Positions 10,764-29,442 of a stretch of DNA of 64,000 bases are shown here, one piece after another. The position numbers and the translations under genes are program-made. The notes under the pieces were generated by a model that ran no database searches, had not been told where the DNA came from, and was given only the letters and a program-made list of their open reading frames with translations. The stretch lies in UHGV virus genome UHGV-1558314. One strand, written 5' to 3'. Source of the DNA: a virus. Position 1 is the first letter of the stretch, and each line of letters opens with the position of its first letter.

Positions 10764-11822
10764 TTACTGCTTCAAGCCTGTGAACAGTTCATACTTGAAT
10801 GCAGGCCCTGCTGTGTAAGCCTCAAAGTAGAAGTCACCAATATTGATGCTTGCAATAGCGTCATCGACAGCTTTCTTGTAGCCTACACGTTCAATTGTCT
10901 GCTTATCGCATTTACGCCAATATGTGCTGTGCATCATAAGCGTGGGTGATGCAGCATAGTCTACTGCAAGCTGTTGTTTTGCAGTGTCAATGTGATGTTC
11001 ATAGATGTGCACATCATTGCCAGTCCAAATGAACTCTCTTGCCGCACAGTTAGTCAATGTTGCAACAATATGTGTAAGCAATGCATATGATGCGATATTG
11101 ATGGGCACACCAAGACACATGTCACAACTACGCTGAGTAAGCGCACAGTCAAGCCACATGCTTGGTACTTGAGCAGAATCAAGGCATTCTGCAGAACAAT
11201 CATGCACAAGCATGCTATCATTAGCAATCTGAATTCGTTCTTCAAGAGTCATTGGCTGACAATTGAACTGAAACAGCATATGACATGGCGGCAATGCCAT
11301 CTGAGACATTTGTGCAGGATTCCATGCAGACACGACTTTGTAGCGGCCAGTTGGATTGATGACAATGTCTTTAATGCAAGTTGCAAGTTGGTCATATCCA
11401 CTGTCATTGAAGTTGCGCCACTGATACCCATAGATAGGTCCGCAATCACCATACTCAGGCTTGCTGAATTTTGTGTTATGCAGTTCTGTGCACCAAGTTT
11501 CAAAGTCGACATCTTCACCTGGATGCAGTTTACGCCAATGACGATATGCATCCTGATGCCAGAACTTTGTAATACCAAGCGTGTCAAGCGTTTTTACATT
11601 TGTATCACCTGACATAAACCACAGAAGTTCTCCAATGACACCCTTGACAAACATTCTCTTGGATGTCAACAGTGGAAAGCCTTTACGCAAATCAAATCGC
11701 ATTGATTCTACAAACAATGACTTTGTGCGAGGCATGTTTTCACGAGCAGGCTCCTTAAATCTGCCATGTTCAATAACATTGTTAAGTACTCTCAAGTACT
11801 CAGTGTCGTGTTTGATATTCAT
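10764..11822 (-). CDS. thyA: thymidylate synthase (ThyA family, with insertion)
   Basis: FPLLTSKR, VVSAWNPAQ, catalytic ALPPCHMLFQF, and LGVPINIASYALL with Asn at the base-specificity position (uracil-specific). Confidence 0.8.
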   Translation of the reverse strand: MNIKHDTEYLRVLNNVIEHGRFKEPARENMPRTKSLFVESMRFDLRKGFPLLTSKRMFVKGVIGELLWFMSGDTNVKTLDTLGITKFWHQDAYRHWRKLHPGEDVDFETWCTELHNTKFSKPEYGDCGPIYGYQWRNFNDSGYDQLATCIKDIVINPTGRYKVVSAWNPAQMSQMALPPCHMLFQFNCQPMTLEERIQIANDSMLVHDCSAECLDSAQVPSMWLDCALTQRSCDMCLGVPINIASYALLTHIVATLTNCAAREFIWTGNDVHIYEHHIDTAKQQLAVDYAASPTLMMHSTYWRKCDKQTIERVGYKKAVDDAIASINIGDFYFEAYTAGPAFKYELFTGLKQ

Positions 11823-14687: not shown

Positions 14688-15044
14688 TTATTTGCACATA
14701 AACAATGCAGCAAACCAATTCACTGGCTTGTCAATAAGCTGCTTCCACATAGTCCAATTGTACATGCCATGTGCAAACATTGTAAGAGCAAACAGCAGCA
14801 TACACATTGATACAAGCCAATCAGCAAATGGCATATTGCCCCATCGAATGTACTCGAAAATGCCAACTTTAACAAGCTGAGCAAACAAAATGAGCATTAC
14901 AGCCATTGCAAGTCGCGTCCAGACTACATATTGCTGAGTCTTATCTACAAACTTTGCAATCAATGCTGGCACAAAGTACATAATGTATGCAAACAGCAGC
15001 AAGCAAAAGCCTGCATACAGCAGATTAGAAATAAAAGCTCCCAT
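14688..15044 (-). CDS. integral membrane protein (3-4 TM)
   Basis: ORF track; strongly hydrophobic segments (FCLLLFAYIMYFVPALIA, AMAVMLILFAQLV, LVSMCMLLFALTMF). Confidence 0.45.
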   Translation of the reverse strand: MGAFISNLLYAGFCLLLFAYIMYFVPALIAKFVDKTQQYVVWTRLAMAVMLILFAQLVKVGIFEYIRWGNMPFADWLVSMCMLLFALTMFAHGMYNWTMWKQLIDKPVNWFAALFMCK

Positions 15045-15047: not shown

Positions 15048-15929
15048 CTATCGTTTGAATTTGATGAAGTGTTCAGCATCGAGGCCCTCAAATACATACG
15101 GGTCAAGAGTTTCCCAGAAGTTTGAGTATGTCGTTGTCTTTGCAATGCTTGTTTGCTTTGACAAGTTCATATTTGGGTAGCCAAGCATTGCATAGTGTCG
15201 CTCATATATGTGCATTGACGTCGCATTATGCACATATGCGCCAAGCTTAAGACCAAGTTCATTTGCGACAAGTTCTTGCAACAAAGTGAATGCAAACTGG
15301 TCGTTGCAAAAGCCCCAAATGACATCATTGCTTCGCATGTATGTTGTCAAGTACAGCTTATCACCACGAACATTGAAAACAAGATTCAATGTGCATGGCA
15401 TGTCTTTGCCAGTGTAGTTTGCATATTGCGGCTCATAAATGCTAATAACTGCTCGTCTTGTGCATTCATGATTTCGCAAACGTTCAATGACATCTGCAAT
15501 CTGCTTGTGCCAAATTGCGCCATACTGTGAATTGACATTGACACCATCGTCGCTGAATTGCTTCCAACGAGGCAAATAACGTTCAATGCATTCAACTGCA
15601 GGATTGGCTGTCATGTACCACGCAAATTCTGCAGCAGCATTGAGCTTTTTCCATGGTCGTACGTCAATCTTGATTTGCCGCTGTGAAGGGTCCTGAATAA
15701 CTACAGACACATTCAGCAATTCTTTTGTTCGAGTCACTGTTTGTGCATTGTTGCCCTTTGATTCTACAAACTCACCTCTACAATGAAGTTCATACAAAAT
15801 TGAGCGAAATGCTTCTGTTGCAGTGTTTTCAATGATTGTCGTCTGTTGATAACATAAATTTGACGACAATGCTTCAGCATCATTGTACTTTATGCTGTCA
15901 TTGTCATAAGGTGAATTTTTTGTGTGCAT
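15048..15929 (-). CDS. deoxycytidylate 5-hydroxymethylase (T4 gp42-like, ThyA fold)
   Basis: Catalytic Cys in DMPCTLNLVF; YMRSNDVIWGFCNDQFAF closely resembles gp42 NMRSNDVVFGFRNDYAW, with Asp at the position equivalent to ThyA Asn177 / gp42 Asp179. Confidence 0.7.
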   Translation of the reverse strand: MHTKNSPYDNDSIKYNDAEALSSNLCYQQTTIIENTATEAFRSILYELHCRGEFVESKGNNAQTVTRTKELLNVSVVIQDPSQRQIKIDVRPWKKLNAAAEFAWYMTANPAVECIERYLPRWKQFSDDGVNVNSQYGAIWHKQIADVIERLRNHECTRRAVISIYEPQYANYTGKDMPCTLNLVFNVRGDKLYLTTYMRSNDVIWGFCNDQFAFTLLQELVANELGLKLGAYVHNATSMHIYERHYAMLGYPNMNLSKQTSIAKTTTYSNFWETLDPYVFEGLDAEHFIKFKR

Positions 15930-15953: not shown

Positions 15954-17048
15954 TCATACAACGACGGTATCTCGTTTGCAATCTGTTCTGTCGAATATCG
16001 AGCAACAATATGATGCAGATTGCTCTTTGATTGCAATAGCTTCGTCATTGTCAAGTGATGAAATACCATCTATGTATGCTTTTGTATTGCCAGCGATGTC
16101 ATCATTTGTTAGCAATGCTGCACGACGTTCAGTACCAAAGAAGCCAAAGCACAATTGACGCTGCAATGCTTCACGAGAAATCTTGTCATCAAACTCGGAT
16201 TTCATGTGTTGCATAAATTCGACAATATCATCAATGTCGCATTGAGTAAAGTCAATGTACAATTTATGCATGTACTTGAATCGTTTGTAGTCTGTTGCAA
16301 GAATTTCTGGGTGCACAATGAACAACGTCTTTTTGCTGTCTATTGGATTTGCAATGACTGACGCTTGAACATAATCAACAAGCACGCCAGATTCACGAAG
16401 TTGCTCAACTGTTTTGCCAAATATATGCCCAAACGTGTCATCAAACCACTTCAAGTATACTTCGTTGTCTTCATCTTTTGATGCGCCAACAATGTAAATC
16501 TCATTGACTCCAAGCGCTTTAAGACGAGTGTCAGATAGCATCGTGTTCAATTGATGCTGCACATACAGCATTGGGCTGCTATGCAAAACTGTTTTGACAA
16601 TCTCACAAGCAATGTCCATATATGCATAGTCAAGCTTTGCAGATTTTGACACATACACTGCACGTTGCTGCAATGGCTCAATTGCTGAGCATGTGGTCAC
16701 AAAGTTGCCAACACATTCTGCTACTGCAATGTCATGCAAGTCATCTGCAATGTACACAATACTTGACAAGTCATCAAATGTTTGAACAAGTTGCTGAAGC
16801 TTTGTTTTGTAATTGCAGAGCATCAATGACTTGATGTTGCAATTGCCAAGCATTGTCTTGATGAGTCGTTGACCTGCTTCAGTGCTGTCACCAGAAATGA
16901 CATGCACATCGCAGTCAAACCAGTTCAACATGTCGATTGCATGCCGAACGCCATATTGCATTTGTTTTGCGAACTTGCCAGATTCATTGAACAGCATTTC
17001 ACCTGACATAATGCCGTCAAAGTCACATACGATTTGAAGTCTGTCCAT
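15954..17048 (-). CDS. HAD-superfamily phosphatase domain protein with uncharacterised C-terminal domain
   Basis: N-terminal IVCDFDGIM matches the HAD motif I (D-x-D-G). Confidence 0.5.
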   Translation of the reverse strand: MDRLQIVCDFDGIMSGEMLFNESGKFAKQMQYGVRHAIDMLNWFDCDVHVISGDSTEAGQRLIKTMLGNCNIKSLMLCNYKTKLQQLVQTFDDLSSIVYIADDLHDIAVAECVGNFVTTCSAIEPLQQRAVYVSKSAKLDYAYMDIACEIVKTVLHSSPMLYVQHQLNTMLSDTRLKALGVNEIYIVGASKDEDNEVYLKWFDDTFGHIFGKTVEQLRESGVLVDYVQASVIANPIDSKKTLFIVHPEILATDYKRFKYMHKLYIDFTQCDIDDIVEFMQHMKSEFDDKISREALQRQLCFGFFGTERRAALLTNDDIAGNTKAYIDGISSLDNDEAIAIKEQSASYCCSIFDRTDCKRDTVVV

Positions 17049-17052: not shown

Positions 17053-17358
17053 CTACAATTTTGAAGTTAAGTCAATTCGAATTTTGTCTGCGTTGCTTTG
17101 GTCAACAAATCTGTCATCAAAGAAACATTCAACTACGACAAGCTTCTTTGAATTCACAAATTCGATTAGCGATTTTTGCATTGCATCAAGTTGCTTCATG
17201 CATTTACAAAAGCTGCTGTATGACATGATTTGCTTTGGTAACATATCAAATGCGTCTGCAATTCGCTGATGAGCAATCTTTTTTGATGTTGCAATAATGA
17301 CATCTGCTTTGTTGTCATTTGCATGATTGCCAAATATCGCAATATGGTAAACTTTCAT
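17053..17358 (-). CDS. hypothetical small protein
   Basis: ORF 17053..17385 trimmed to internal Met MKVYHIAIFG. Confidence 0.35.
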   Translation of the reverse strand: MKVYHIAIFGNHANDNKADVIIATSKKIAHQRIADAFDMLPKQIMSYSSFCKCMKQLDAMQKSLIEFVNSKKLVVVECFFDDRFVDQSNADKIRIDLTSKL

Positions 17359-17412
17359 TGTATGAGTGATTTTGCTGTTATACATTTATGTTATATATGC
17401 ACATTGTGCCAG

Positions 17413-20400
17413 TTAACAAATTGATGACGTGCCATCAGTATTTGCTACAACTGTCAATGCACTATCAAACTCATCTTGTTGCAATACATGGTCAACTATG
17501 AGTGTTTTGCGAATTGCAGAAAGCTTGGTAAGCAACTGCATCAACACTTGCTGATAATTGATATTGTTGACATCATGCTCAGCGCCAACAATCTGCCCAT
17601 TGCTAAGCTTGCCACTGATTTCGTCAATGAGCAAGATGTTGCCCACTTTGTTTAAGCGTTGAGTCAAAATGAGATGCACGATTGCAAGACCTGCGAAAGT
17701 TCCTTCCATGCCAGACATTTGACTTACACTTCGAATTGACTTCGAGCCCATCAAGTCAATCATCTTCAACACATTGTTGTCATTGATGTCAAAGAACACT
17801 CGGTAGTTCAATGAATCCAGCAAATCATTGAGCTGTGCATTCAGTGATGTTGCAATTGCTGCAAAGACATATGAAACTAAGCCTCGTTTGCTTGTGCACT
17901 GCTTATATGCATTGTACACCAAGTTTGCAATGTTCCACTTTTTCGAAGCTTGCAAATCTTTCTTGAGAGCTTCAATTCGCACATTGTTTGCTGATAAGTC
18001 TGCTTGCATTGTTGCAATTTCTGCATTGATGCTTAGCAGTTTTGAGTTCGCTTCAGTTTCATGCTGCTTAGCATCATCAATGTCGACTTGCAATGCAGCA
18101 TTTGTTGTAATATGCTGCTGAGTTTGCTGTGCATGTTCAAGTGCAAATGCTGCAGCAGTCTTATCAATCTCAAGTTGTTTAAGCGCAGACTCATATGTCG
18201 CTTTCTTATCATACTCTGCTTGAGCAATTTCAAGTTCAGCATTTATTGCAGCCAGTTCTGATTCTACTGTAGATTTTGATTGCAATACATCTTGCTTTGC
18301 TTGTTCAGCTTTACGTTTGATGTCTGCAAGTTGATTTGTGATATCTGCAATTTGCATTTTGACTGCTTCGACTTCAAGCAATGTTGCTGCAGTAGCCATT
18401 GGTTGTGCAATGAATGCATCTAAGTCTCTTTGCGCATTGACTACAGTTCTCTGCAAATCATTGAGCTTTTCTGCATGCATGTCATATGCTGCTTTGTGTG
18501 CTGGATTCAGTGCAGCAATTATTGCATTTGAATCTGTAACATCTATGATTGCTGCTTGCAGTTGCTCAATTTCATACTTCAAATTGCCAATTTTGACAAC
18601 ATTCTCATTGAATTGCTCTGTCTTTTGCGCACATTCTTGACGCAACTTAGCAAGCTCAGTTGACAACCACAGCTTGTATGCTTGTCCTGTGCCAGATGTC
18701 AAGTCATTTGTACATACAGGGCATTTGTCGTTTTCAAGTTGCTTTTGCTTGTCTATAACATTGTCGATGTTTGTTTTTGCAGCAGATATTTCTGTTCTAA
18801 GTGCATTTTGAACAGTGTTGATGTCTTCAATTTGCTTTTGCAAAGCATCTATTTTTGCCCGAGTGTTTGCATTGTACGACTTGCCAAGATTTATCAGCAC
18901 AGAATCAATGTGCTGCTTTGCTGCATCATATGCAAGCTTTGATTCATCAAGCTTTGTTCTGTACAATGACTCTGCATGCGCAACTTCTTTCTGCACTTTT
19001 GCAGATAGCTCATTCTGTTTTGTAAGCAGCTCAGCATATGTATTGTGCAGCTGTGAGCCAGATGCTATGACATTTGTGTATGCTGTATTAGCTTCATTGT
19101 CAATATTAGTGAGTTGCTGCTCAATCTGTGCTTTTGCTGTTTGCAACTTAGACATATCTTGCAATGCAAGTGCAGCAATGTCAAGCTCAACTTTGTGAAT
19201 CTTTGCAATGATGCCATCGATATTTGCTGTTGCATCTTCTATAGTTAAGATGTCTGCAGGAATTTGATGTAGTTTCTTTGAGAGCTCTTCTACTTTTGCA
19301 CGAGCTTTTGTAAGCTTCGCGGACCACTCTTTTTGATTATCTTGTCGTAACTGCAAAGAGTAATTGAGTTCATTGCAAGTTGTATTGAGAGACTCAAGTT
19401 CTGCTTTTATTGCAACATCAGTCAATGCGGGCTTACTAAGGCCATCAAACAATGCAGCCTTTGCAGCATCATTAGAATTGCCAAGCTGTACAAATGTATT
19501 GATGCCAAGAGTATCAAGTAGCCAGTCATTCAATGAATTTGAGTCCATTGCAATGATTTGGTCAAGTAGTGTCTGATTGATACAAACATATCGCGACAAT
19601 TCCCAGATAGAGCCAAAGATTGCATATAGCGTGTCTTTGATTTCATGCTGCGGCACTACGTAGTCATCTGACAATCTTACAAGCTGAACAGTCTCATTGA
19701 CTGCTGACACGTTATCTCGCCATGAGCCATCTGCATTTATTCGAGAACCTCGTTTGAATTTGCGTTCAAGTGTTCGAATCAATTTGTAGTGAACATTTTG
19801 ACCTGCTACTACATGCACAAAGACACAAGAAGCTTCAAGCTTATCATATGACTCATTGTCAATCAATTTGTCATTGAAGTATGTCAAAGCGTTCTGCTTT
19901 GTTGCTGCAGAAGACTGTTCAGCGTCAATAAAGCCAGTCAGCAGCCATTTGATAAGTCTGAAGATTGTAGTCTTGCCATTGCCATTGTTGCCTCTAACTT
20001 GTGTAAGCTGTGCAAGATTGTCAAAGCTGACATCAACATCTTTCAATGCCATGAACTGATTTGCTTTAACATTTTGAATGACATATTTTGCAACTTCAGT
20101 GTCAAAAGACAATTTATCAATTTGTTCATCAATCAATGACTTGAACATGTCAACAAACTGCTGAGCATCTTCAGTAGCAACTATGGCATTGCGTTCAATG
20201 TATGCATTGACCCAGTCAAGTGCAGCGTCTTTAAGCCATTCAGCAGTTTGAACCTTTTGCAGCAAATTGTCGCCATTTGCGTCTACAGCATTGATTGAAT
20301 CAATGACAGCAGAATCATACAGAATGTCAATTGCAGCAACAACATATGAACTTACAAGATTCTGTGCAATGCGCTCAACAATACCAGACAGTTCGGGCTT

Positions 20401-21339
20401 TGTGACCTTTGACTTGATTTTGATTTTATTGATGCGGCCAGGGTTGATGAGTGCAATCTTGTCTGTTTTGACATCATTATCAATTGTGATTGTATGATAA
20501 TGCACAAGCTGCTCAAGTGGATGCCACTCTACCACAATTCGCTTGTTGTCAATATCGATGTCAAGCAAGTTGTAGCCATGTTCTGCAGTACCATGCTGTA
20601 TTGCAGTGTCATTCAACAAATAGTCGCCTTCACCAAAATCTCTGACAATTGGCGAGCCGCAATATGTTAATGTCTTATCACCAGCAACCCATATTGCATG
20701 CTTATGAATGTCACCCATTGCAACAAAGTTGCTATTAAATTGCATTGCATCTATACGACTGTCATTGTCACCACGAACAATACAATCATCAAAGTTGACA
20801 CAATTCTTTACAGGGTCATGGAACAGCTCAATGACACACATTGATGACAATGCTGCAATCTGCGATTCATCAAGTGATGCCCAAGGCGAATATGTGCCAC
20901 CAGACCACTTCTCATTTTGAGCCCATACTGCAGCAGCAAAACCAGGTGCAAGCAGTTCAACTCTTGAACTGTTGATATACTTGATTCGCTTGTCATCAAT
21001 TGCAGTTACAAGCTTGTCAATGCTATCTGTCCACTGCATTTGTGAACCATCACCAGCATCAAATGTGTTATCACGTTGCTTCAAATCATGATTGCCAGCA
21101 GTAATGACAATTTGAAGCTTGTCATTGACTTCAAGCATGCCTTTGAGCAGCTTAACAAACAGCGACTCTTCAAGTGAATTGCTATTCCAATGCTCAAACA
21201 CGTCGCCGACAATGAATACAAACTCAACTGACTTTGCTTTGTCAATTAGTTGTTTGTTGATGTGCTCATATTCTACGAAACGTCGTAAATGACCTTGTCG
21301 AACATTATATTGAATGTCTGCTATGTGAAGTGCTTTCAT
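17413..21339 (-). CDS. fused Mre11/SbcD nuclease - Rad50/SbcC ATPase (1308 aa)
   Basis: N-terminal phosphoesterase motifs VFIVGDVFEHW, VITAGNHDL, GDIHKH; Walker A GNNGNGKTTIFRLIKWLL; coiled-coil with zinc hook DKCPVCTNDL; signature SGMEGTFAGLAIV; Walker B LLIDEISGKLS. One uninterrupted ORF. Confidence 0.75.
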   Translation of the reverse strand: MKALHIADIQYNVRQGHLRRFVEYEHINKQLIDKAKSVEFVFIVGDVFEHWNSNSLEESLFVKLLKGMLEVNDKLQIVITAGNHDLKQRDNTFDAGDGSQMQWTDSIDKLVTAIDDKRIKYINSSRVELLAPGFAAAVWAQNEKWSGGTYSPWASLDESQIAALSSMCVIELFHDPVKNCVNFDDCIVRGDNDSRIDAMQFNSNFVAMGDIHKHAIWVAGDKTLTYCGSPIVRDFGEGDYLLNDTAIQHGTAEHGYNLLDIDIDNKRIVVEWHPLEQLVHYHTITIDNDVKTDKIALINPGRINKIKIKSKVTKPELSGIVERIAQNLVSSYVVAAIDILYDSAVIDSINAVDANGDNLLQKVQTAEWLKDAALDWVNAYIERNAIVATEDAQQFVDMFKSLIDEQIDKLSFDTEVAKYVIQNVKANQFMALKDVDVSFDNLAQLTQVRGNNGNGKTTIFRLIKWLLTGFIDAEQSSAATKQNALTYFNDKLIDNESYDKLEASCVFVHVVAGQNVHYKLIRTLERKFKRGSRINADGSWRDNVSAVNETVQLVRLSDDYVVPQHEIKDTLYAIFGSIWELSRYVCINQTLLDQIIAMDSNSLNDWLLDTLGINTFVQLGNSNDAAKAALFDGLSKPALTDVAIKAELESLNTTCNELNYSLQLRQDNQKEWSAKLTKARAKVEELSKKLHQIPADILTIEDATANIDGIIAKIHKVELDIAALALQDMSKLQTAKAQIEQQLTNIDNEANTAYTNVIASGSQLHNTYAELLTKQNELSAKVQKEVAHAESLYRTKLDESKLAYDAAKQHIDSVLINLGKSYNANTRAKIDALQKQIEDINTVQNALRTEISAAKTNIDNVIDKQKQLENDKCPVCTNDLTSGTGQAYKLWLSTELAKLRQECAQKTEQFNENVVKIGNLKYEIEQLQAAIIDVTDSNAIIAALNPAHKAAYDMHAEKLNDLQRTVVNAQRDLDAFIAQPMATAATLLEVEAVKMQIADITNQLADIKRKAEQAKQDVLQSKSTVESELAAINAELEIAQAEYDKKATYESALKQLEIDKTAAAFALEHAQQTQQHITTNAALQVDIDDAKQHETEANSKLLSINAEIATMQADLSANNVRIEALKKDLQASKKWNIANLVYNAYKQCTSKRGLVSYVFAAIATSLNAQLNDLLDSLNYRVFFDINDNNVLKMIDLMGSKSIRSVSQMSGMEGTFAGLAIVHLILTQRLNKVGNILLIDEISGKLSNGQIVGAEHDVNNINYQQVLMQLLTKLSAIRKTLIVDHVLQQDEFDSALTVVANTDGTSSIC

Positions 21340-21418: not shown

Positions 21419-21766
21419 TTATTTTGCAAGCATTTTGCTGATTGCATCTATCACAGTTTCACTGAGCAAGTAGTAGACAACGCTTATCAGCAATGATATC
21501 AGTACTGCAGCTGTGATAAATTGCAACGCATTCACAATTGCACGCACAAATGTTATCTGTGTGTTGTATGCAAGCACTATGCAGCATAGCACAATAATGA
21601 CACACCAGACTACAATTGCATATGCAGGCATCAATGAATTTGTCCATATGCAGTACAATACAGTAGTTAGCATCAAAAATGCTATTGCTCTGATGACTGA
21701 CACAATGATGTCTATGTAGAGCTTCATTACACGTAAATGAACTCTTGGCTTATGCGGTTTCATCAT
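21419..21766 (-). CDS. small membrane protein
   Basis: ORF 21419..21829 trimmed to internal Met; hydrophobic segments IIVSVIRAIAFLMLTTVLYCIW, AIVVWCVIIVLCCIVLAY, AAVLISLLISVVYYLL. Confidence 0.4.
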   Translation of the reverse strand: MMKPHKPRVHLRVMKLYIDIIVSVIRAIAFLMLTTVLYCIWTNSLMPAYAIVVWCVIIVLCCIVLAYNTQITFVRAIVNALQFITAAVLISLLISVVYYLLSETVIDAISKMLAK

Positions 21767-23001
21767 GACTTTATGTACAATTCTGCAAGTTGTCTGGTGT
21801 ACAATCGTGGATTGTGATATGCTTTCCAATATGCAGTAGACTTTATTGCAGCAAGAATCTCATCATAATGTTTGACTGCTTTTGCTACAACTTCATCAAG
21901 TACATGCAAATCTTCTACACTAACAAGCAGCCATTTTTCTACAATGTCAATGAATTCTTGATTGCAATTAAAGCCATATTTGTAGTTGCAAGTGTCAAGT
22001 ACAAGTGGGATGCAGTCATTTGTCAGTGCTTCAAAAAATCTACGAAGACTGAAACAATTCTCATCATATGATGGAATGCTTAATGTAAACTTGGCAGTCT
22101 TGATGAGTTGCAAATACTCTTCGTATGGAATCAGAGGACCATTGTGCTTCCACTGATTGTTATGTCGTCTTGTTGTGTACTTGAACAAAAACTTTGAACT
22201 GTCAAGCTCACAAAGATGGTCCATGCGTAAAATGTAGTTATAGCGGTCTCTTCTATCAGGCCAACTGTCAGTCATTGCAAACACAAAGTCTCTTTGCTTG
22301 TCACATTTTGCTGACATACCTCTATGCTGACACATGCAGTACCAATATTGCTGCGATGGACTGAACTCGAACTTTGAGTGATGCTCACTGCCATCTTTGC
22401 ATTGTTGAACGTAAATATTGTCAGGCACAAAGTGAAAGTAGAAATGTCGAATTTGCAAGCCGTCAATGTAGTCAAGCTTATGCTGCAATGGGTCCTCACA
22501 GAAATTGTAACACTGAATGCGTTTTGCTGCAGCATACTCAGCAACTATGAATGTGCACACCCATTGCAATGCGATGTCTTCACTCTTCAAAAAGTCAACA
22601 AGTGGCTCATTTGGATGCGCTTTGCATTCATTGAACATTTTGTACCACTTGCATTGCTCCATGTCATACTTGGAGACTGTATTGCCATTAAAAAATGACA
22701 CAGTATCAATTTTGAATGCCTCAAGTTGTTTATGCACAATGTCGATTGCTTGTGCATATGTGACAGTCTCATCAGACATTATTTGTGCAAACTTGATTGG
22801 ATGCGCATGCAAATTTGCAATTGTGTCTGCTGACATTTTGCGCTGTGTATGATAATCGACATACAAAAACTGACACTTGTCTGTAAGCAATTCAAGCATT
22901 GCTACAGATTTCCATCGAATTGCTTGAAAGAAATTGAAGTGCGCAGTTTGAAAAATGAGATGCGTAGGCTTGTCAGAATGAGTCAAAGTTTGCATGGACA
23001 A
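21763..23001 (-). CDS. putative DNA glycosyltransferase, GT-B-like (paralog A1)
   Basis: Paralogous to 26026..27582 (shared EDPLQHKL[D/N]YID, SPSQQYWY, IPSYDENCFSLRRFFEALTNDCIPLV). The C-terminal S-L-R-x-F-x-E...P-L-V patch resembles the catalytic region of phage beta-glucosyltransferase. Family assignment is from memory. Confidence 0.45.
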   Translation of the reverse strand: MSMQTLTHSDKPTHLIFQTAHFNFFQAIRWKSVAMLELLTDKCQFLYVDYHTQRKMSADTIANLHAHPIKFAQIMSDETVTYAQAIDIVHKQLEAFKIDTVSFFNGNTVSKYDMEQCKWYKMFNECKAHPNEPLVDFLKSEDIALQWVCTFIVAEYAAAKRIQCYNFCEDPLQHKLDYIDGLQIRHFYFHFVPDNIYVQQCKDGSEHHSKFEFSPSQQYWYCMCQHRGMSAKCDKQRDFVFAMTDSWPDRRDRYNYILRMDHLCELDSSKFLFKYTTRRHNNQWKHNGPLIPYEEYLQLIKTAKFTLSIPSYDENCFSLRRFFEALTNDCIPLVLDTCNYKYGFNCNQEFIDIVEKWLLVSVEDLHVLDEVVAKAVKHYDEILAAIKSTAYWKAYHNPRLYTRQLAELYIKS

Positions 23002-24158
23002 ATGTCGCAGTTATGTTGATGTTTGTGTTTATTTATGAAGTCATATGTCACTGCAAAAAAGTGCTTTGCAATGTCATATCGAGTTTTCAAATATGCTGCT
23101 TGTCGTTCACAAAATGCTGCATAAATATCTGGGTGTTGTTTGAATGCTGCAATGCGTTGCTGTACTTGTTCTGCAGAATGCACATATGACACTTTGCTCA
23201 AATATACATCATCTGCAAATAATCGTTTGTCTTTGTCAACTGCGCAATCAACAAAAGTTGCAATTCGTGCAACAATTGCTTCACCGACACGATTTGGTAT
23301 TAGCCCATATTGCTCATATTGCTGTTCGCCGATAGCAATGTGTGCTGCTGCATATGACATTGCATATGGCACACTATAAAATGGCACACTAAAATCAAAT
23401 GAACAATTTGACTGCAGCAATTGTGTTTGTGCATCAGACAATCTACTTGTCAAGTTGCCTGTATATTTGTGCTCACCAAGAAAACTTGAGCGACAGCCTG
23501 AATCTACATAGTATCGAATGACTTTGTTTATGCGACTGTCAGATAGCATATGCCAATCTCTTGTAGCATATATCAAGTCTACTGTTTTTGCGCCAATATG
23601 ACGAGGCTCTATCGCAACATTGCTGTATGTTGGCAGCATAAACAATGGCAGCCATTTGACATTGTTGAACACTGAATGCTCATTTGACAAATTCATGCAC
23701 TGGCTAAGTTCAAGTACTGGCTCATCATACACGCCATGTAGCTCAACTCTGCCTGCATGCACAAAGTTGACACGCTTAAATGGAAATCGCATATCAGTGC
23801 AAACTGTCATTCTTGCTGCAATAGACATTCGCCACATAGCATGCAGCTTAACAACTGCTTCTGCTTGAGGTCGAGGCAACATATTTAGCAAATCAATCCA
23901 GCCGCCCCACAAAATCCAAACATCATTTGAACAGATGTTGAATTGCAAACTCAATATGTCTTCTACTGTTGTAGCAATAATGTCATGCCCATTGATGCTT
24001 GCAAGGTGTTTTCGTTGATTTGCAATAATAATGACTTGACTGAATGGAGACTCTGGAAATGACACAAGCGCTTTTGCAAACAACACGGGTTCTTGCGACA
24101 CCAAGTTGTTTGAGTATGGGTCGATTATGCAATCAAGCTTGTGTATGAAGAGTCTCAT
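22983..24158 (-). CDS. hypothetical DNA-modification-associated protein (paralog B1)
   Basis: Paralogous to 27579..28745 (similar N-termini MRLFIHKLD / MSKLFILKFD; shared L[L/I]PNR[W/V]-x-E-x-[V/I] near C-terminus). Sits immediately upstream of A1, as B2 does of A2. Confidence 0.4.
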   Translation of the reverse strand: MRLFIHKLDCIIDPYSNNLVSQEPVLFAKALVSFPESPFSQVIIIANQRKHLASINGHDIIATTVEDILSLQFNICSNDVWILWGGWIDLLNMLPRPQAEAVVKLHAMWRMSIAARMTVCTDMRFPFKRVNFVHAGRVELHGVYDEPVLELSQCMNLSNEHSVFNNVKWLPLFMLPTYSNVAIEPRHIGAKTVDLIYATRDWHMLSDSRINKVIRYYVDSGCRSSFLGEHKYTGNLTSRLSDAQTQLLQSNCSFDFSVPFYSVPYAMSYAAAHIAIGEQQYEQYGLIPNRVGEAIVARIATFVDCAVDKDKRLFADDVYLSKVSYVHSAEQVQQRIAAFKQHPDIYAAFCERQAAYLKTRYDIAKHFFAVTYDFINKHKHQHNCDICPCKL

Positions 24159-25195: not shown

Positions 25196-25411
25196 TCATT
25201 TTGCACAGTCTGATGCAATTAAATCTTTGTCAAAGCATTCATCTATAATGTCTTCAATAAGATACGCTTCGACATTGTTAAGCTTCAAGATATCTACGAG
25301 TTTTGCTTTGATATCGCAAGCTAATGCAGATTCGACTGTATGCAATATGACTGATGATACGACATGCTTGTCTGTCATCATTTGTAATTGCTGTGGTGTT
25401 ACTCTACTCAT
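25196..25411 (-). CDS. hypothetical small protein (71 aa)
   Basis: ORF track; 4-nt overlap with the upstream kinase gene. Confidence 0.35.
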   Translation of the reverse strand: MSRVTPQQLQMMTDKHVVSSVILHTVESALACDIKAKLVDILKLNNVEAYLIEDIIDECFDKDLIASDCAK

Positions 25412-25980
25412 GCGCCAAGTTCAGCTAAGCATTTCAACACATTGTCTTGCAGACTTGCATTGTTGTCAATTTCGACAATATGCAATGGTGAGTTCTTTCG
25501 CCACTCATCATATGCAGCAATCATTTCATTGCGTTTGCTGACATCAATGTTGACATCACCGCAAAAATTATCGACAAAATCTGGCACAACATCACGCTTG
25601 CATAAGAACACTACGTGCGGCAATGTTGCAAGCTTCTTTTCATATGCTTCAAAGAATGCTTGATGCTTATCAGTGTGCAGCTCTTTGTAAAGCGTTGTGT
25701 TGAAGATTTGATGCGTGATGAATGAACGGTCACACAAAAACGTTGCTTTGCCAAAGCCTTGAGAGTCATTTCCAATGAACTCTAAGAAGAAGCGCCAATC
25801 ATAAAAGAACGCTTCATTGAGGTCCCAAGGTTCGGGCATTGGGTCATCACCTGACTCATGCTGCTGCCACCAAGAACGAGATGTTCGTTTGCAATTGATA
25901 AACCATGGGCGCCACTTCATCAATTCATTGATGAGTGTTGTTTTGCCTGAAGCTTCTACACCTTCAAATATCGCTATCAT
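25408..25980 (-). CDS. P-loop deoxynucleoside monophosphate kinase (thymidylate kinase-like)
   Basis: N-terminal IAIFEGVEASGKTTLI (Tmk-type P-loop) and CDRSFITHQ (DR[Y/S]-like motif). Confidence 0.6.
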   Translation of the reverse strand: MIAIFEGVEASGKTTLINELMKWRPWFINCKRTSRSWWQQHESGDDPMPEPWDLNEAFFYDWRFFLEFIGNDSQGFGKATFLCDRSFITHQIFNTTLYKELHTDKHQAFFEAYEKKLATLPHVVFLCKRDVVPDFVDNFCGDVNIDVSKRNEMIAAYDEWRKNSPLHIVEIDNNASLQDNVLKCLAELGA

Positions 25981-26025: not shown

Positions 26026-27582
26026 TCATTGCACTTCTACGAATGGCTCTTTCAACACAAAGCTGTCACCATTGCAACATGCGGCTGAGCCATCGTCTGC
26101 ATCAAGTGCGCATGACATATCAGACTTGCAGAACTTGCAATATGAACATGACCATGCATGACTCATAAAGTTGTTTGCTTCACAAATTACACAGCGCTCA
26201 TGTGAAAGTGTATTGTCGCAATTGTCACAAGACTTCTTGATTGGCACATCTTTATTGATATATGCAAGATGCAATGCAATATCATACACAAAGTCACCCG
26301 TATATTGCTGAATGAAATCAGTGTGCCACAACTCTTTTAACAATTGTGTATGTCTATATGGCTGAACAATGTCTTCAAGATGCTGCAAGTCATCATCGCT
26401 AACCATGAGCTTCTTAATGACAAACTGTTTGAACTGCGGCCATCTGTCAAACATATAGAGTTTGCATGAGTTGTGCACAAGTGGAACACAGCCAAGCACA
26501 ATGCTTTCACAGAATCTACGCAAACTAAAACAGTTTGCATCATATGACGGCACAATCAATGTGAATCTGCTATGCTTGATGAGTTCAAGGTATGTGTCAT
26601 ATGGCAGTAGCTTGTCTGACAATGGCTGCTGTTGCTTGTCCCTGCTGAAAAATCTGAACACAATGCCTTTATCAATTGCATCTTGATTGTGCAGATGCAT
26701 GAGTTTGTTGATGAGTTCTGTGCGTTCAGTTTTGTCTCGCCAAGTATTCGTCAATGCAAATGCAAAATTCAGTCGCTTGTCATCAAACGTCGCTTCAATG
26801 TCATCCCAAGTTTTGTCATGCAAATACCAGTATTGCTGTGATGGGCACCATCCATAATATGCAATAGCGTCTTGTTCTGCTGTAACGTCATACACATATG
26901 CAGAATTGTATTCAAGGCCAAGCCCTTTGACATTGTTGCAGTCATGAAAGTACCAATGCTGCACTTTGAATATCTTTGATGCACTGAATGCGCTTTCATA
27001 TGGCCCTGAATAGCGATAGTCAATGTAATTGAGCTTGTGCTGCAATGGGTCTTCGACAAAGTTGTTTATGACTGTGCCTTGTTGTTTGCCATTAGTCTTG
27101 CGAGCATTCAATGCAATATTGTACTGCATAATGACTGACAGCATCTCATACACTACATACATGAGTGCTTTGTAGACTGAGCCTGCTGCGTCAATTAGCG
27201 GCAAATCACGTTTGACTGATGCAGTACCAAATGTCTTGCAATATGCAGAAAATGTATCAAGTTCTGCCTGTTGAAATGAATTGCATGCGCCATTGAATAT
27301 GTTGAATGTTGCAATGTAGCTCATATTACAAGATGTCATTGACATATCAAGACGCTTCATAATGTCAGCAATGCGACATTGAGCAAAATCTGACACATCA
27401 ACATATTTGACATGATGACCTGATGCAGTCAAGCCAACTGCGACTTCTTTCATTTGTGGCACAAAGCCTACTACAATGAACAAGTCATCTTTGTTTGCTC
27501 GTTCAAACATTGCTGCACTTTTCCAAGTCAATGAATTGAAAAAGTCTATGTAGCCAGTCTGTGTGATGATATGTGTTCTCAT
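26026..27582 (-). CDS. putative DNA glycosyltransferase, GT-B-like (paralog A2) with Cys-rich C-terminal tail
   Basis: Paralog of 21763..23001 (VEDPLQHKLNYID, CPSQQYWY, VPSYDANCFSLRRFCESIVLGCVPLV). Extra C-terminal Cys cluster (CDNCDN...CVICE...CSYCKFCK). Confidence 0.45.
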   Translation of the reverse strand: MRTHIITQTGYIDFFNSLTWKSAAMFERANKDDLFIVVGFVPQMKEVAVGLTASGHHVKYVDVSDFAQCRIADIMKRLDMSMTSCNMSYIATFNIFNGACNSFQQAELDTFSAYCKTFGTASVKRDLPLIDAAGSVYKALMYVVYEMLSVIMQYNIALNARKTNGKQQGTVINNFVEDPLQHKLNYIDYRYSGPYESAFSASKIFKVQHWYFHDCNNVKGLGLEYNSAYVYDVTAEQDAIAYYGWCPSQQYWYLHDKTWDDIEATFDDKRLNFAFALTNTWRDKTERTELINKLMHLHNQDAIDKGIVFRFFSRDKQQQPLSDKLLPYDTYLELIKHSRFTLIVPSYDANCFSLRRFCESIVLGCVPLVHNSCKLYMFDRWPQFKQFVIKKLMVSDDDLQHLEDIVQPYRHTQLLKELWHTDFIQQYTGDFVYDIALHLAYINKDVPIKKSCDNCDNTLSHERCVICEANNFMSHAWSCSYCKFCKSDMSCALDADDGSAACCNGDSFVLKEPFVEVQ

Positions 27583-28745
27583 GATTTGAATGTTTGTTCA
27601 AGAATTGTGTAACACTGCACAATCATTACTGCAAGAGCTTTTTGCTGTGCTTGTTTGCAATCATCAAAATTTGTGGGCGCAGTGCGTACGCGTGTTTTGC
27701 TATTAAGTGTCGCAAATGTCGCGTAGTCATCGAAGCCTATAATGTCAGCAAATAGGGCAATTGGCTTATAATCTACAAGTATGTTGCAGCAATTTGCAAG
27801 TACGCCTTCAACCCATCGATTTGGCAGCAAGTCTGCTTGCACATACAATGAATCACCAACTACAAGATTGTATGCCGACTGTGACATTACACGCGGCATT
27901 GCATCGTATGTGACTTTGTATTTAAGTGTAAAGTTTGGTGCTGCTGATTTAATCGCAGACAAAATTGTGTCATCAAGATATGATGTTATGAGACACGTGT
28001 CGCACATATGTATGACAAATTGTTCAATCACACTTCTACGATACTCGTCAAGATATGTGAAACCTGCACAACTTGCACAGCATGCATATTGCTGCTTTAT
28101 GTCAGCAAAGCTACGCACATGAGCTTCAATTGCATTTTGCATCGTTACTTGTAGTTTAAGCAATCTTGGCTCTTTAATGTATTGAAGCTTCAATGCATTG
28201 ACTGCTGCAATGATTTGCAATGGGGCAAACACACATTGAGACTCATCAAGCCAAGCGTATTTGAGATTTTTGTGCTGGCATAGATGCGTAATGTTGTCTT
28301 TTTGTGATTCTAAGTACTCTTTGTAATTGTGCAATCGCTTTGTCAATGTGCATTCTTTATCAAAGTCGAATCGCAAATCAGTTGTTAGTGTAAATTTGCG
28401 AGCGTTTGACAAACACCATGTTTTGAATGCATTCCACAGAACATCTTGCTGAAATTCTGAGCAATGTTCAAGAGCAGCCTTTGAACCTTGCCAGAATATT
28501 GCGCAATCATCTGATTTTGCGCACTTCAGCATATCTTGCCATGCATGTATGTTATTGATAATATGCACATTATCATACACAAGCTCATCAAGTATTGCAT
28601 GCTTGTTCTCAGGGTCGCCAAACACATATACAGCATCAAACATTGTCTGCACAAAACCTGCAAATGCAATAGGTTCTGTATGCTTAAGATGCTGTACGTC
28701 TGAACGCACGCATGTGTCAAATTTCAAAATGAATAGTTTGCTCAT
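27579..28745 (-). CDS. hypothetical DNA-modification-associated protein (paralog B2)
   Basis: Paralog of 22983..24158; same position relative to its A partner. Confidence 0.4.
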   Translation of the reverse strand: MSKLFILKFDTCVRSDVQHLKHTEPIAFAGFVQTMFDAVYVFGDPENKHAILDELVYDNVHIINNIHAWQDMLKCAKSDDCAIFWQGSKAALEHCSEFQQDVLWNAFKTWCLSNARKFTLTTDLRFDFDKECTLTKRLHNYKEYLESQKDNITHLCQHKNLKYAWLDESQCVFAPLQIIAAVNALKLQYIKEPRLLKLQVTMQNAIEAHVRSFADIKQQYACCASCAGFTYLDEYRRSVIEQFVIHMCDTCLITSYLDDTILSAIKSAAPNFTLKYKVTYDAMPRVMSQSAYNLVVGDSLYVQADLLPNRWVEGVLANCCNILVDYKPIALFADIIGFDDYATFATLNSKTRVRTAPTNFDDCKQAQQKALAVMIVQCYTILEQTFKS

Positions 28746-29442
28746 ATACTTTGCAATTATCTATTACATGTTGATATTGTACTTCATCTATGATGTGATT
28801 TGCAATGACACCATATGAGGCGTCATACATTGGCATCTTCTCATATGACAATGCTGCGTCAAGATTGCATATCACATAATTGCAATGCACAATGTCATCT
28901 ACATTGTCACTAACTGCTACGATATTGACACACTTTGCAAGAAATGCATCATCAAAGTCTACTTGATTGCATGCAACCTCATAATCTGCTGCGCTTCTTG
29001 GGTACCAATATAACTCAATGCCAGCACTACTAAGTAGTCGCAAGCCATCTATGTGATGATACAAGTCAACAAAATGCACTTGCTTAACGCCTGCTTGCAA
29101 AATAAGCTTTGCGCAATCAATGCATGGACTGTATGTTACATACAGCACTGCGTCATTTGCGGTCGCATTGCCATATTTGCACAGCTTCATCAATGCGTTT
29201 GATTCTGCATGCAAAACTTCTTTGTTGGTTTTGATACCTGCCGATGTTGCATGCTCACAACAATTTGACATGCCAGTTGGCATGCCATTGTAGCCATCTG
29301 AAATTATGCAACCATTTTTTACAAGCAATGCGCCAACTTTTGCTCGCTGAGCATATGAATTTAATGACCAAAGCTCAGCCATTTTAAGATATATGAGATT
29401 TCGTTGAAACTGCTTTGTTTCAGACCAAGTTAGCCATTTCAT
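28717..29442 (-). CDS. dCMP deaminase (zinc-dependent cytidine/deoxycytidylate deaminase family)
   Basis: Zinc-ligand motifs LHAESNAL (H-A-E) and YSPCIDCAKL (P-C-x-x-C). Confidence 0.8.
   Translation of the reverse strand: MKWLTWSETKQFQRNLIYLKMAELWSLNSYAQRAKVGALLVKNGCIISDGYNGMPTGMSNCCEHATSAGIKTNKEVLHAESNALMKLCKYGNATANDAVLYVTYSPCIDCAKLILQAGVKQVHFVDLYHHIDGLRLLSSAGIELYWYPRSAADYEVACNQVDFDDAFLAKCVNIVAVSDNVDDIVHCNYVICNLDAALSYEKMPMYDASYGVIANHIIDEVQYQHVIDNCKVYEQTIHFEI
28763..28791 (-). promoter_or_regulatory. partial copy of conserved promoter motif inside the 3' end of the dCMP deaminase gene
   Basis: Minus-sense GAAGTACAATATCAACATGTAAT, about 18 nt upstream of the B2 start codon at 28745. Confidence 0.35.

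What the first reader, a model, noticed from the sequence alone, without database searches (positions are those of the whole stretch)
15954..17048. HAD phosphatase fused to an unknown domain next to the hydroxymethylase
The HAD motif DFDGIM is followed by about 250 residues of unassigned sequence, directly downstream of the dCMP hydroxymethylase. A nucleotide phosphatase here could help exclude canonical dCTP from the pool (a role T4 fills with a dUTPase-family dCTPase) or process a modified nucleotide.
Basis: inference. Interest (0 to 1): 0.4.

Follow-up and report, generated by a model that had tools for sequence, protein, structure and literature searches.

The report
KdsC-type sugar phosphatase beside dCMP hydroxymethylase
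A gut-phage gene next to the enzyme that makes hydroxymethyl-cytosine encodes a phosphatase of the sugar-phosphate (KdsC) type joined to an orphan domain, and it most likely helps make the activated sugar used to decorate the phage DNA rather than removing dCTP.

Summary
The ORF is real: window 15954-17048, minus strand, 364 aa, conserved in five gut-metagenome phage lineages and under strong purifying selection. Residues 1-155 are a capless (C0) HAD phosphatase of the KdsC/YrbI kind with all four catalytic motifs invariant. Residues 156-364 are an orphan alpha/beta domain with no significant sequence or fold match. The gene lies 24 nt upstream of, not downstream of, a T4 gp42-like dCMP hydroxymethylase. 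Around it are a Tmk-like kinase, dCMP deaminase, a true ThyA and four glycosyltransferase-like genes.

The nearest relatives of the HAD domain sit in phage NDP-arabinose cassettes. In PAU it directly follows the AfhE-like kinase/nucleotidyltransferase. MA9V-2 has API and AfhE-like genes but no AfhF homolog. In one IMG/VR contig the HAD is fused to a DNA arabinosyltransferase between a 5-hydroxy-dCMP synthase and API/AfhE. A 95%-identical strain of this phage also encodes an AfhE-like enzyme.

Best reading (about 0.45): a sugar-(bis)phosphate phosphatase supplying the DNA-glycosylation donor, a non-orthologous replacement of AfhF. The dCTP-exclusion idea is not supported but not excluded. This is a new variant of a known kind, of moderate interest.

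The parts
15954..17048 (-). Complete CDS of the two-domain protein (364 aa plus stop codon at 15954-15956)
   Evidence: ORF list. Full-length homologs exist at 98%, 59%, 37% and 38% identity in gut metagenome phage contigs. pN/pS is 0.04-0.10 against 95%-identical strains.
16584..17048 (-). N-terminal capless (C0) HAD phosphatase domain of KdsC/YrbI type, residues 1-155
17007..17024 (-). HAD motif I, DFDGIM (nucleophile D9 and acid/base D11)
   Evidence: Translation. D9, F10, D11, G12 are invariant in all homologs, including PAU gp216 and MA9V2_142.
16881..16901 (-). HAD motif II region, VISGDST (S52). An invariant Asp54 stands where KdsC enzymes have 'TGR'.
   Evidence: Alignments.
16800..16802 (-). 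HAD motif III lysine, K83
   Evidence: Invariant.
16731..16748 (-). HAD motif IV, ADDLHD (D102, D103, D106; Mg2+ ligands)
   Evidence: D103 and D106 are invariant in every alignment. D102 is invariant within the family and is Glu only in PAU gp216 (GEDLID).
15957..16583 (-). Orphan C-terminal alpha/beta domain, residues 156-364. It ends in a Cys-rich tail.
15048..15929 (-). Downstream partner gene: T4 gp42-like dCMP hydroxymethylase (293 aa), 24 nt after the HAD gene
   Evidence: PF00303 E 3.7e-24. C146, D at position N177, D169 kept, T147/M165/N168 as in T4 gp42. The adjacency is conserved in L001, L002/L003, L004/L005 and L018.
17053..17385 (-). Small upstream gene (110 aa, no family), 4 nt before the HAD gene; probably the same transcript
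   Evidence: A homolog occupies the same position in L001. No terminator-like site lies between 17413 and 15048 on the minus strand.
25408..25980 (-). Tmk-like nucleotide kinase of the same module (candidate hm-dCMP kinase)
   Evidence: 35% identity to MA9V2_145 'thymidylate kinase'. phrog_761 E 8.9e-6.
22983..24158 (-). T4 beta-glucosyltransferase-like DNA glycosyltransferase candidate (a paralog lies at 27579-28745)
   Evidence: phrog_7922 beta-glucosyltransferase E 1.4e-7. Paralogy.
21763..22995 (-). GT-B / GT47-like glycosyltransferase candidate (a paralog lies at 26026-27582)
   Evidence: PF03016 E 1.5e-4 and PF13524 E 1.7e-4. Paralogy E 3e-43.
28717..29442 (-). dCMP deaminase
   Evidence: PF00383 E 5.5e-21.
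10764..11822 (-). Bona fide thymidylate synthase (ThyA type) with an insertion
   Evidence: PF00303 E 4.3e-76. N177, L143 and H147 retained.

Best explanation
The gene encodes a Mg2+-dependent phosphomonoesterase whose catalytic domain derives from the KdsC/YrbI branch of the HAD superfamily, which consists of capless sugar-phosphate phosphatases. It is co-transcribed with the phage's dCMP hydroxymethylase as part of a cytosine hypermodification module. That module comprises hm-dCMP synthesis, a Tmk-like kinase, and several DNA glycosyltransferases.

Its most likely job lies on the sugar side of the pathway. An AfhE-like enzyme, encoded elsewhere in the same genome, phosphorylates a pentose 5-phosphate (D-arabinose-5-P, from a phage or host isomerase) at C1. 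This HAD then removes the terminal 5-phosphate to give sugar-1-phosphate. The nucleotidyltransferase half of AfhE converts that product to the NDP-sugar used by the DNA glycosyltransferases. In effect it would be a non-orthologous replacement of AfhF.

The chemistry fits. KdsC's natural substrate, KDO-8-P, carries exactly the arabinose-5-P-derived terminal phosphate. The Arg that follows 'TG' in KdsC enzymes is replaced here by an invariant Asp; from memory, unverified here, that Arg helps bind the KDO carboxylate.

The 209-residue C-terminal domain is an accessory domain of unknown role. It could act as a cap or specificity element, or as a docking module. A related phage has the DNA arabinosyltransferase fused in that position.

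Shown: the domain identity, the intact catalytic motifs, the gene context, the contexts of the homologs, and an AfhE-like gene in a 95%-identical strain. Inferred: the substrate, the pathway step, and the role of the C-terminal domain.
For: HAD/KdsC assignment. Catalytic motifs invariant. Purifying selection on both domains.

Module context. gp42-like hydroxymethylase signature. Tmk-like kinase. beta-GT-like and GT47-like paralog pairs. Synteny is conserved in five lineages.

Homolog contexts.
- PAU gp216 (31% identity) overlaps the stop of gp215 by 1 nt. gp215 is NTP_transferase plus APH kinase, homologous to RB69 gp52:53/AfhE. An API (gp212) lies nearby.
- MA9V-2 has API (MA9V2_233) and an AfhE-like gene (MA9V2_235) but no RB69 gp51/AfhF homolog. 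Its HAD of this clade is MA9V2_142, and it has a separate MazG-like gene.
- L139 has the gene order TS homolog (RSQN, the D169N signature) -> HAD of this clade (36% identity) fused to an RB69 gp46:47-like arabinosyltransferase -> API -> AfhE-like.
- L137 has an AfhE-like gene followed directly by a stand-alone KdsC-like HAD.

Contig IMGVR_UViG_3300045988_152288 is 95.4% identical to the window over 21 kb. It encodes a 574-aa AfhE-like protein (L117; hmmsearch E 1.6e-105).

Published pathway: AfhE makes Ara-1,5-P2, the HAD phosphatase AfhF removes the 5-phosphate, and in DLP3 the AfhF gene (gp81) lies next to the TS homolog (gp80) (PMC13326640). HAD partners of AfhE come from at least three HAD subfamilies.
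Against: - No API was found in the roughly 118 kb of the 175-kb genome that could be read. The AfhE-like gene lies tens of kb from this gene rather than beside it.
- The same genome has a second small HAD (151 aa, PNKP-like) two genes upstream of the AfhE-like gene. It hits an AfhF profile weakly (11 bits) and could perform the AfhF step instead.
- The TS homolog here is hydroxymethylase-type, not the 5-hydroxy-dCMP synthase type seen in the characterised arabinosylation systems.
- The GTs here are beta-GT/GT47-like and unrelated to RB69 gp46:47, so the sugar may not be arabinose.
- No enzyme of the KdsC family has been shown to act on arabinose 1,5-bisphosphate (my knowledge).
- The structure models are of low confidence.
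Confidence: 0.45

Rival explanations
1. This is the first reader's idea: a nucleotide phosphatase. The HAD domain would dephosphorylate dCMP, dCDP or dCTP (or another canonical or modified dNMP) to bias the pool toward hm-dCTP. The C-terminal alpha/beta domain would bind the nucleotide.
For: - Strict adjacency and probable co-transcription with the dCMP hydroxymethylase in five lineages.
- No dUTPase/MazG-type dCTPase was detected among the window proteins scanned or by tblastn with the MA9V MazG-like protein.
Against: - The domain belongs to the KdsC branch, all of whose named members act on sugar-acid phosphates.
- There is no similarity to NT5C or dCTPase families.
- HAD phosphatases normally cleave phosphomonoesters, not dNTP anhydrides. 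A dCMP phosphatase would destroy the hydroxymethylase's own substrate (reasoning from T4 biochemistry).
- Homologs in PAU, L139 and L137 are embedded in sugar-activation cassettes, and MA9V-2 has a separate MazG-like gene.
- Adjacency of a sugar-bisphosphate HAD to the TS homolog is already known from DLP3, so adjacency does not discriminate.
- The C-terminal domain lacks a Walker A motif.
- About 57 kb of the genome is unread and could hold a dCTPase.
Confidence: 0.13
2. A genuine KDO-8-phosphate (or KDN-9-P) phosphatase. This would be an auxiliary metabolic gene that boosts or redirects host lipopolysaccharide or capsule sugar synthesis, as the GenBank annotation of MA9V2_142 implies.
For: Best family hits are KdsC (TIGR01670, NF007019) and KDN-9-P phosphatase (NF058599). 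PDB hits are all KdsC. The hosts are probably Bacteroidota, which make KDO and KDN (BACON-domain protein; relatives infect Chryseobacterium).
Against: - Scores are far below the curated cut-offs: 37.7 against 106.95 bits, and 30.2 against 208.
- The Arg after 'TG' conserved in KdsC structures is an invariant Asp here, and a 4-residue insertion follows.
- No KdsA or KdsB was found nearby.
- The gene's conserved partners are DNA-modification genes, and in L139 the HAD is fused to a DNA arabinosyltransferase.
Confidence: 0.07
3. A phosphatase acting on a macromolecular substrate, for example DNA 3'-phosphate ends (as in the T4 PNKP HAD domain) or a phosphorylated DNA-base intermediate. The C-terminal domain would bind DNA or the neighbouring SbcCD nuclease.
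Against: Sequence similarity is specifically to KdsC, not to PNKP. The homolog contexts point to sugar activation. No DNA-binding motif or basic patch is evident. No kinase partner is adjacent.
Confidence: 0.07
4. A sugar-phosphate phosphatase for a different, non-arabinose donor sugar needed by the beta-GT-like or GT47-like transferases. In this reading the 151-aa HAD near the AfhE-like gene performs the AfhF step.
For: The same phage species has a second HAD next to the AfhE-like gene. There are four GT-like genes of two families unrelated to the known arabinosyltransferases. The TS homolog is hydroxymethylase-type.
Against: The 151-aa HAD has no homolog beside any of the other 110 AfhE-like loci, whereas KdsC-type HADs recur there. 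No other sugar-pathway gene was identified in the regions read.
Confidence: 0.15

Closest known systems
KdsC / YrbI (3-deoxy-D-manno-octulosonate 8-phosphate phosphatase; TIGR01670; PDB 3ij5, 2r8e, 4um5) and BT1713 KDN-9-P phosphatase (3e81)
   Same: Capless C0 HAD core of about 150 residues. Motifs are DxDG-hydrophobic, S/T-G, K and (G/A)DDxxD. The profile match is significant and collinear over residues 6-142, and the fold matches.
   Different: Scores are far below the family cut-offs. 'TGR' is replaced by an invariant 'GD(S/Q)' with a 4-residue insertion after it. The protein carries an extra 209-residue domain instead of the short C-terminal tail. The genomic context is phage DNA modification rather than LPS synthesis.
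AfhF (phage HY126) = RB69 gp51 = DLP3 gp81, the HAD phosphatase of the UDP-arabinose pathway for arabinosyl-5-hydroxycytosine DNA (PMC13326640)
   Same: A small Mg2+-dependent HAD phosphatase encoded in a phage pyrimidine-hypermodification cluster, lying next to the thymidylate-synthase homolog in DLP3. Relatives of the present HAD occupy AfhF's position directly after AfhE (PAU, L137) or between the TS homolog and API/AfhE (L139).
   Different: There is no detectable sequence homology (tblastn gave nothing; AfhF profile E 0.22), so this is a different HAD subfamily. The protein here has two domains. The TS partner is hydroxymethylase-type, not the 5-hydroxylase type. The AfhE-like gene is distant in the genome.
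Sphingomonas phage PAU gp216, Chryseobacterium phage MA9V-2 MA9V2_142, and the L139 HAD-arabinosyltransferase fusion (IMGVR_UViG_3300018410_000011)
   Same: They belong to the same HAD clade (31-36% identity; shared DFDGI[FM]S and [ST]GD[SQ][ST] signatures). Each carries extra domain(s). All are in large phages with TS homologs.
   Different: The appended domains are unrelated to the one here (hhalign probability below 1%). In L139 the appended domain is an RB69 gp46:47-like glycosyltransferase.
   Same: Only the genomic logic is shared: a phosphohydrolase in a phage that replaces C with hm-C.
   Different: The fold and chemistry are unrelated. gp56 is an all-alpha NTP pyrophosphohydrolase that cleaves dCTP/dCDP to dCMP, whereas this is a HAD phosphomonoesterase. 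There is no sequence similarity.
Mammalian CMP-sialic acid synthetase C-terminal domain (PDB 3ewi)
   Different: The domain order and the partner domain differ. The CMAS HAD domain is reported to be catalytically inactive (my knowledge), whereas here all catalytic residues are intact.

Membership tests
HAD superfamily phosphatases | Motif I hhhDxDx(T/V) with two Asp residues | tested here: met
   IVCDFDGIM. D9 and D11 are invariant in all homologs. Ile/Val stands at the T/V position, as in KdsC 'DVDGV'.
HAD superfamily phosphatases | Motif II Ser/Thr, motif III Lys, motif IV acidic DD/DxxxD | tested here: met
   S52 (S/T in all members), K83, and D102-D103-x-x-D106 are conserved. PAU gp216 has E at position 102.
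HAD superfamily phosphatases | Rossmannoid HAD fold | tested here: met
HAD superfamily phosphatases | Mg2+-dependent phosphoryl transfer through an aspartyl-phosphate intermediate | not testable with these tools
   Needs an enzyme assay.
KdsC / YrbI (TIGR01670, NF007019) | Score at or above the curated family cut-off | tested here: not met
   37.7 bits against a cut-off of 106.95 (TIGR01670), and 30.2 against 208 (NF007019).
KdsC / YrbI (TIGR01670, NF007019) | Capless C0 architecture (no cap insertion between motifs I and II or between II and III) | tested here: met
   Collinear alignment of residues 6-142 to profile positions 4-140 of 154. Only a 4-residue insertion appears relative to the KdsC structures.
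KdsC / YrbI (TIGR01670, NF007019) | Conserved Arg after motif II ('TGR'). From memory, it helps bind the KDO carboxylate. | tested here: not met
   The family has an invariant Asp54 ('SGDST', 'TGDQS') where 3ij5 and 3i6b have 'TGR'. The functional role of the Arg is recalled, not verified here.
KdsC / YrbI (TIGR01670, NF007019) | Homotetramer in which the neighbouring subunit caps the active site; KDO-8-P specificity | not testable with these tools
   Needs structure determination and assay.
AfhF-type phosphatase (RB69 gp51 / DLP3 gp81) | Sequence homology to AfhF | tested here: not met
   tblastn of RB69p051 gave no hit in the window or related loci. An AfhF profile built from 33 sequences gave E 0.22.
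AfhF-type phosphatase (RB69 gp51 / DLP3 gp81) | Encoded with AfhE (kinase/nucleotidyltransferase) and arabinose-5-P isomerase | tested here: inconclusive
   An AfhE-like gene is present in the 95%-identical strain's genome but lies tens of kb away. No API was found in the roughly 118 kb read. The feature is fully met for clade relatives in PAU, L139 and L137, and genome-wide in MA9V-2.
AfhF-type phosphatase (RB69 gp51 / DLP3 gp81) | Dephosphorylates arabinose-1,5-bisphosphate to arabinose-1-phosphate | not testable with these tools
   Needs an assay.
dCTPase (T4 gp56 / MazG-like NTP pyrophosphohydrolase) | All-alpha dUTPase_2 / MazG fold and motifs | tested here: not met
   No Pfam, PHROG or NCBIfam hit of that kind. 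The fold is alpha/beta HAD.
5'(3')-deoxyribonucleotidase (NT5C, PF06941) | Profile match and C1-type cap | tested here: not met
   No Pfam hit at E <= 1. The best-matching HAD branch is KdsC.

The most novel reading that the evidence does not exclude
The protein would be the founding member of a new two-domain enzyme class in Bacteroidota-infecting gut jumbo-like phages. A KdsC-derived phosphatase is coupled to a previously unseen domain, perhaps a minimal sugar-nucleotide- or DNA-binding module replacing the fused glycosyltransferase of L139. It would channel an unusual activated sugar onto 5-hydroxymethylcytosine. That would give a pentosylated hm-C hypermodification not yet described, since known arabinosylation is on 5-hydroxycytosine.
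Probability: 0.15. Interest if true: 0.65.

Novelty: new variant of a known kind. Interest (0 to 1): 0.45.

Why it matters
Phage DNA hypermodification decides which restriction, CRISPR and glycosylase defences a phage can evade, and the donor-sugar pathways are only now being worked out.

This locus points to three things. First, the phosphatase step of the NDP-arabinose route has been filled independently by at least three HAD subfamilies: AfhF-type, beta-PGM-type fusions, and the KdsC type described here. Second, abundant uncultured gut phages of Bacteroidota may combine a T4-type hydroxymethylase with an AfhE-type sugar-activation enzyme. That predicts a glycosylated hm-C chemistry not seen in model phages. 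Third, the database label 'KDO 8-phosphate phosphatase' on these phage genes is probably a misannotation.

The protein is small, its partners are identified, and the prediction can be tested directly with recombinant enzymes and LC-MS of virion DNA, for example from the cultivable Chryseobacterium phages MA9V-1/2.

Tried and rejected
- Pfam, PHROGs and PADLOC on the protein gave nothing.
- A megablast of 10 kb around the gene against GenBank phages gave no match.
- I considered the C-terminal domain as a SIS-like phosphosugar binder, a degenerate P-loop/PhoH-like domain, a half GT-B, an NTP-transferase, or a nucleoside deoxyribosyltransferase-like domain. None is supported. There is no conserved Walker A and no invariant polar residue across lineages. 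hhalign probability is below 1% against the arabinosyltransferase, beta-GT-like, GT47-like and Tmk-like families and against other unknown window proteins.
- An apparent extension of the MA9V2_142 alignment into the C-terminal domain did not survive a profile test that left MA9V out (probability 0.6%).
- I looked for API, AfhE, AfhF and MazG in the window by Pfam, tblastn and custom HMMs. All were absent.
- Walking the IMG/VR contig in 10-kb steps found only replication and structural genes. The AfhE-like gene turned up only through a degenerate-motif scan.
- A more specific motif scan and the pattern-based related-loci run with AfhE found only PAU.
- A literature search for KdsC specificity determinants found nothing usable. 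The MA9V papers do not discuss these genes.
Full report
**The object.** Window 15954-17048 holds a 364-aa ORF on the minus strand. It starts 4 nt after a 110-aa ORF and ends 24 nt before a 293-aa thymidylate-synthase homolog at 15048-15929. No terminator-like site lies between them on that strand. The gene is therefore immediately upstream of the TS homolog in the direction of transcription, not downstream of it.

It is a real gene. Full-length homologs of 98%, 59%, 37% and 38% identity occur on phage contigs from human and animal gut metagenomes. Against 93-98%-identical strains, pN/pS is 0.01-0.02 for residues 1-155 and 0.07-0.13 for residues 156-364. The family is very rare. An exhaustive HMMER pass with the C-terminal domain over 1.8 billion cluster representatives returned only P0001 and P0003. 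Pattern-based scans of IMG/VR and the JGI metagenome contigs added only one further lineage, L018.

Motif II (S52), motif III (K83) and motif IV (ADDLHD) are present and invariant across the family. The domain is the capless C0 type. It differs from KdsC enzymes in having an invariant Asp in place of the Arg of 'TGR', followed by a 4-residue insertion.

It has no conserved P-loop and no invariant polar residue across lineages. It shows no profile similarity to the phage's glycosyltransferases or kinase, or to the extra domains of the PAU, MA9V and L139 relatives. It is constrained but evolves faster than the HAD domain. I regard it as an accessory domain of unknown role.

**The neighbourhood.**
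- The 293-aa TS homolog has the catalytic Cys, Asp at the E. coli N177 position (cytosine specificity, as in T4 gp42), and the 'MRSND' motif. It retains D169, so it lacks the D169N signature of 5-hydroxy-dCMP synthases described in PMC13326640. It is a gp42-type dCMP hydroxymethylase.
- A second TS homolog at 10764-11822 is a true ThyA.
- Within 15 kb lie a dCMP deaminase, a Tmk-like kinase, and a T4 beta-glucosyltransferase-like protein with a paralog.
- Also there are a GT47/GT-B-like protein with a paralog, and an SbcD-SbcC fusion.
- The gene order 244-aa protein, beta-GT-like, GT47-like, SbcCD, small ORF, HAD-X, hydroxymethylase, helicase is conserved in all five lineages.

The phage genome is about 175 kb. 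It shares gene order with Chryseobacterium phage MA9V-2. A BACON-domain protein also points to a Bacteroidota host.

**What the relatives say.** The only GenBank phage proteins related to the HAD domain are Sphingomonas phage PAU gp216 and MA9V-1/2 MA9V2_142, at 31-32% identity.

- *PAU.* gp216 overlaps by 1 nt the stop of gp215. gp215 is an NTP-transferase plus APH-kinase protein homologous to RB69 gp52:53, the AfhE enzyme. An arabinose-5-P isomerase, gp212, lies nearby.
- *MA9V-2.* It has an API (MA9V2_233) and an AfhE-like gene (MA9V2_235), and no homolog of the AfhF phosphatase. Its HAD of this clade is MA9V2_142. It also has a separate MazG-like gene that could serve as dCTPase.
- *IMG/VR scan.* A degenerate-motif scan for AfhE-like genes gave 111 confirmed loci. 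Of these, 32 carry an AfhF-type HAD, 17 a beta-PGM-type HAD (often fused to AfhE), and 3 a KdsC-type HAD.
- *L139.* The gene order is FMN reductase (divergent), then a TS homolog with the D169N signature, then a 551-aa protein, then API, then an AfhE-like gene. The first 150 residues of the 551-aa protein are 36% identical to our HAD. The remainder is homologous to the RB69 gp46:47 DNA arabinosyltransferase.
- *L137.* A stand-alone KdsC-like HAD directly follows an AfhE-like gene.

According to PMC13326640, AfhE phosphorylates arabinose-5-P to the 1,5-bisphosphate. The HAD phosphatase AfhF then removes the 5-phosphate, and AfhE makes UDP-arabinose. In DLP3 the AfhF gene lies next to the TS homolog.

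**This phage.** No API, AfhE or AfhF homolog is present in the window or in the parts of the genome I could walk. That covers roughly 118 of 175 kb. However, the motif scan had picked up locus L117 on IMGVR_UViG_3300045988_152288. That contig is 95.4% identical to the window over 21 kb. L117 encodes a 574-aa AfhE-like protein, at hmmsearch E 1.6e-105 and 30.6% identity to MA9V2_235. So the phage species very probably activates a pentose.

There is a complication. Two genes upstream of that AfhE-like gene lies a 151-aa PNKP-like HAD. It hits an AfhF profile weakly (11 bits) and has no counterpart in any other locus I hold. It is a rival candidate for the phosphatase step.

**Mechanism.** I conclude that the protein is an active HAD phosphomonoesterase derived from KdsC. 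Most likely (about 0.45) it serves the sugar side of cytosine hypermodification by removing the terminal phosphate of a sugar bisphosphate made by the AfhE-like enzyme. That would make it a non-orthologous replacement of AfhF.

This makes chemical sense. The phosphate that KdsC removes from KDO-8-P is the former 5-phosphate of arabinose-5-P (established KDO pathway). The loss of the 'TGR' arginine fits a substrate without a carboxylate; the role of that Arg is recalled from memory, not verified here.

The substrate, the pathway step and the function of the C-terminal domain are all inferences. Adjacency to the TS homolog does not discriminate, because DLP3's sugar phosphatase is also adjacent. 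The idea cannot be excluded without an assay or the unread 57 kb of the genome.

**Novelty.** HAD phosphatases in phage DNA-glycosylation clusters are known (AfhF). New here are three things I did not find described in the papers searched:
- recruitment of the KdsC branch to this role;
- its fusion to lineage-specific domains, an orphan one here and the arabinosyltransferase in L139;
- its pairing with a hydroxymethylase-type rather than a hydroxylase-type TS homolog.

I rate it a new variant of a known kind, of moderate interest.

Noticed in passing
L117 1708-3432 (-) = IMGVR_UViG_3300045988_152288, about 80.4-82.2 kb: A 95%-identical strain of this phage encodes a 574-aa AfhE-like bifunctional sugar kinase/nucleotidyltransferase, far from the hydroxymethylase module. 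This implies NDP-pentose synthesis in a phage whose TS homolog is the hydroxymethylase type.
   Followed up: partly
L117 4408-4863 (-): A 151-aa small HAD ('IICDIDGTIS', PNKP-phosphatase-like) lies two genes upstream of the AfhE-like gene. It hits an AfhF profile only weakly and has no homolog in any other locus held. It is a second candidate for the sugar-bisphosphate phosphatase step.
   Followed up: partly
L139 2864-4519 (+) = IMGVR_UViG_3300018410_000011: A 551-aa natural fusion of a KdsC-type HAD with an RB69 gp46:47-like DNA arabinosyltransferase. It is flanked by a D169N TS homolog (with a divergent NADPH-FMN reductase gene), an API and an AfhE-like gene, forming a compact arabinosyl-5-hydroxycytosine cassette.
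   Followed up: partly
111 AfhE-like loci among L024-L143 from the motif scan; proteins P0012, P0014: The phosphatase partner of AfhE-like enzymes comes from at least three HAD subfamilies. 32 loci have the AfhF type, 17 the beta-PGM type (often fused N-terminally to AfhE, mostly in giant-virus MAGs), and 3 the KdsC type.
   Followed up: partly
window 17413-21339 (-): A single 1308-aa polypeptide combines an N-terminal Mre11/SbcD-like metallophosphoesterase with an SbcC/Rad50-like AAA_23 coiled-coil ATPase. It is conserved at 1310-1401 aa in all related contigs.
   Followed up: no
window 21763-22995 / 26026-27582 and 22983-24158 / 27579-28745 (-): There are two paralogous pairs of glycosyltransferase-like genes (GT47/GT-B-like, and T4 beta-GT-like). 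In the stretches held, relatives L001, L002 and L018 show only one copy of each. This suggests a multi-sugar decoration that varies between strains.
   Followed up: partly
window 10764-11822 (-): The true ThyA carries an insertion of about 45 residues after the catalytic-Cys strand (PMTLEERIQIANDSMLVHDCSAECLDSAQVPSMW...). The insertion is shared by the L002 ortholog.
   Followed up: no
window 14688-15044 (-): A 118-aa hydrophobic (probably membrane) protein lies between the hydroxymethylase and the helicase. It is conserved at 68% identity in L001 and has no family hit.
   Followed up: no
L006 8739-9128 (MA9V2_142, residues 1-130): The MA9V-2 homolog has a Gly/His/Cys-rich N-terminal extension (CGNCGNSHCHHCH...) that looks like a metal-binding low-complexity segment. 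GenBank labels the whole protein KDO-8-P phosphatase, which is probably a misannotation.
   Followed up: no
window 46823-47437 (-), 39287-39901 (-), 62552-63448 (-): A BACON-domain protein (a hint of a Bacteroidota host), a papain-like C1 peptidase, and a sigma-70 family factor are encoded in the window.
   Followed up: no
L014 16974-18305 (PAU gp25): The 443-aa TS homolog of PAU keeps N177, L143 and H147 (dUMP type) even though PAU carries the API/AfhE/KdsC-type HAD cassette. The base glycosylated in PAU is therefore unclear.
   Followed up: no
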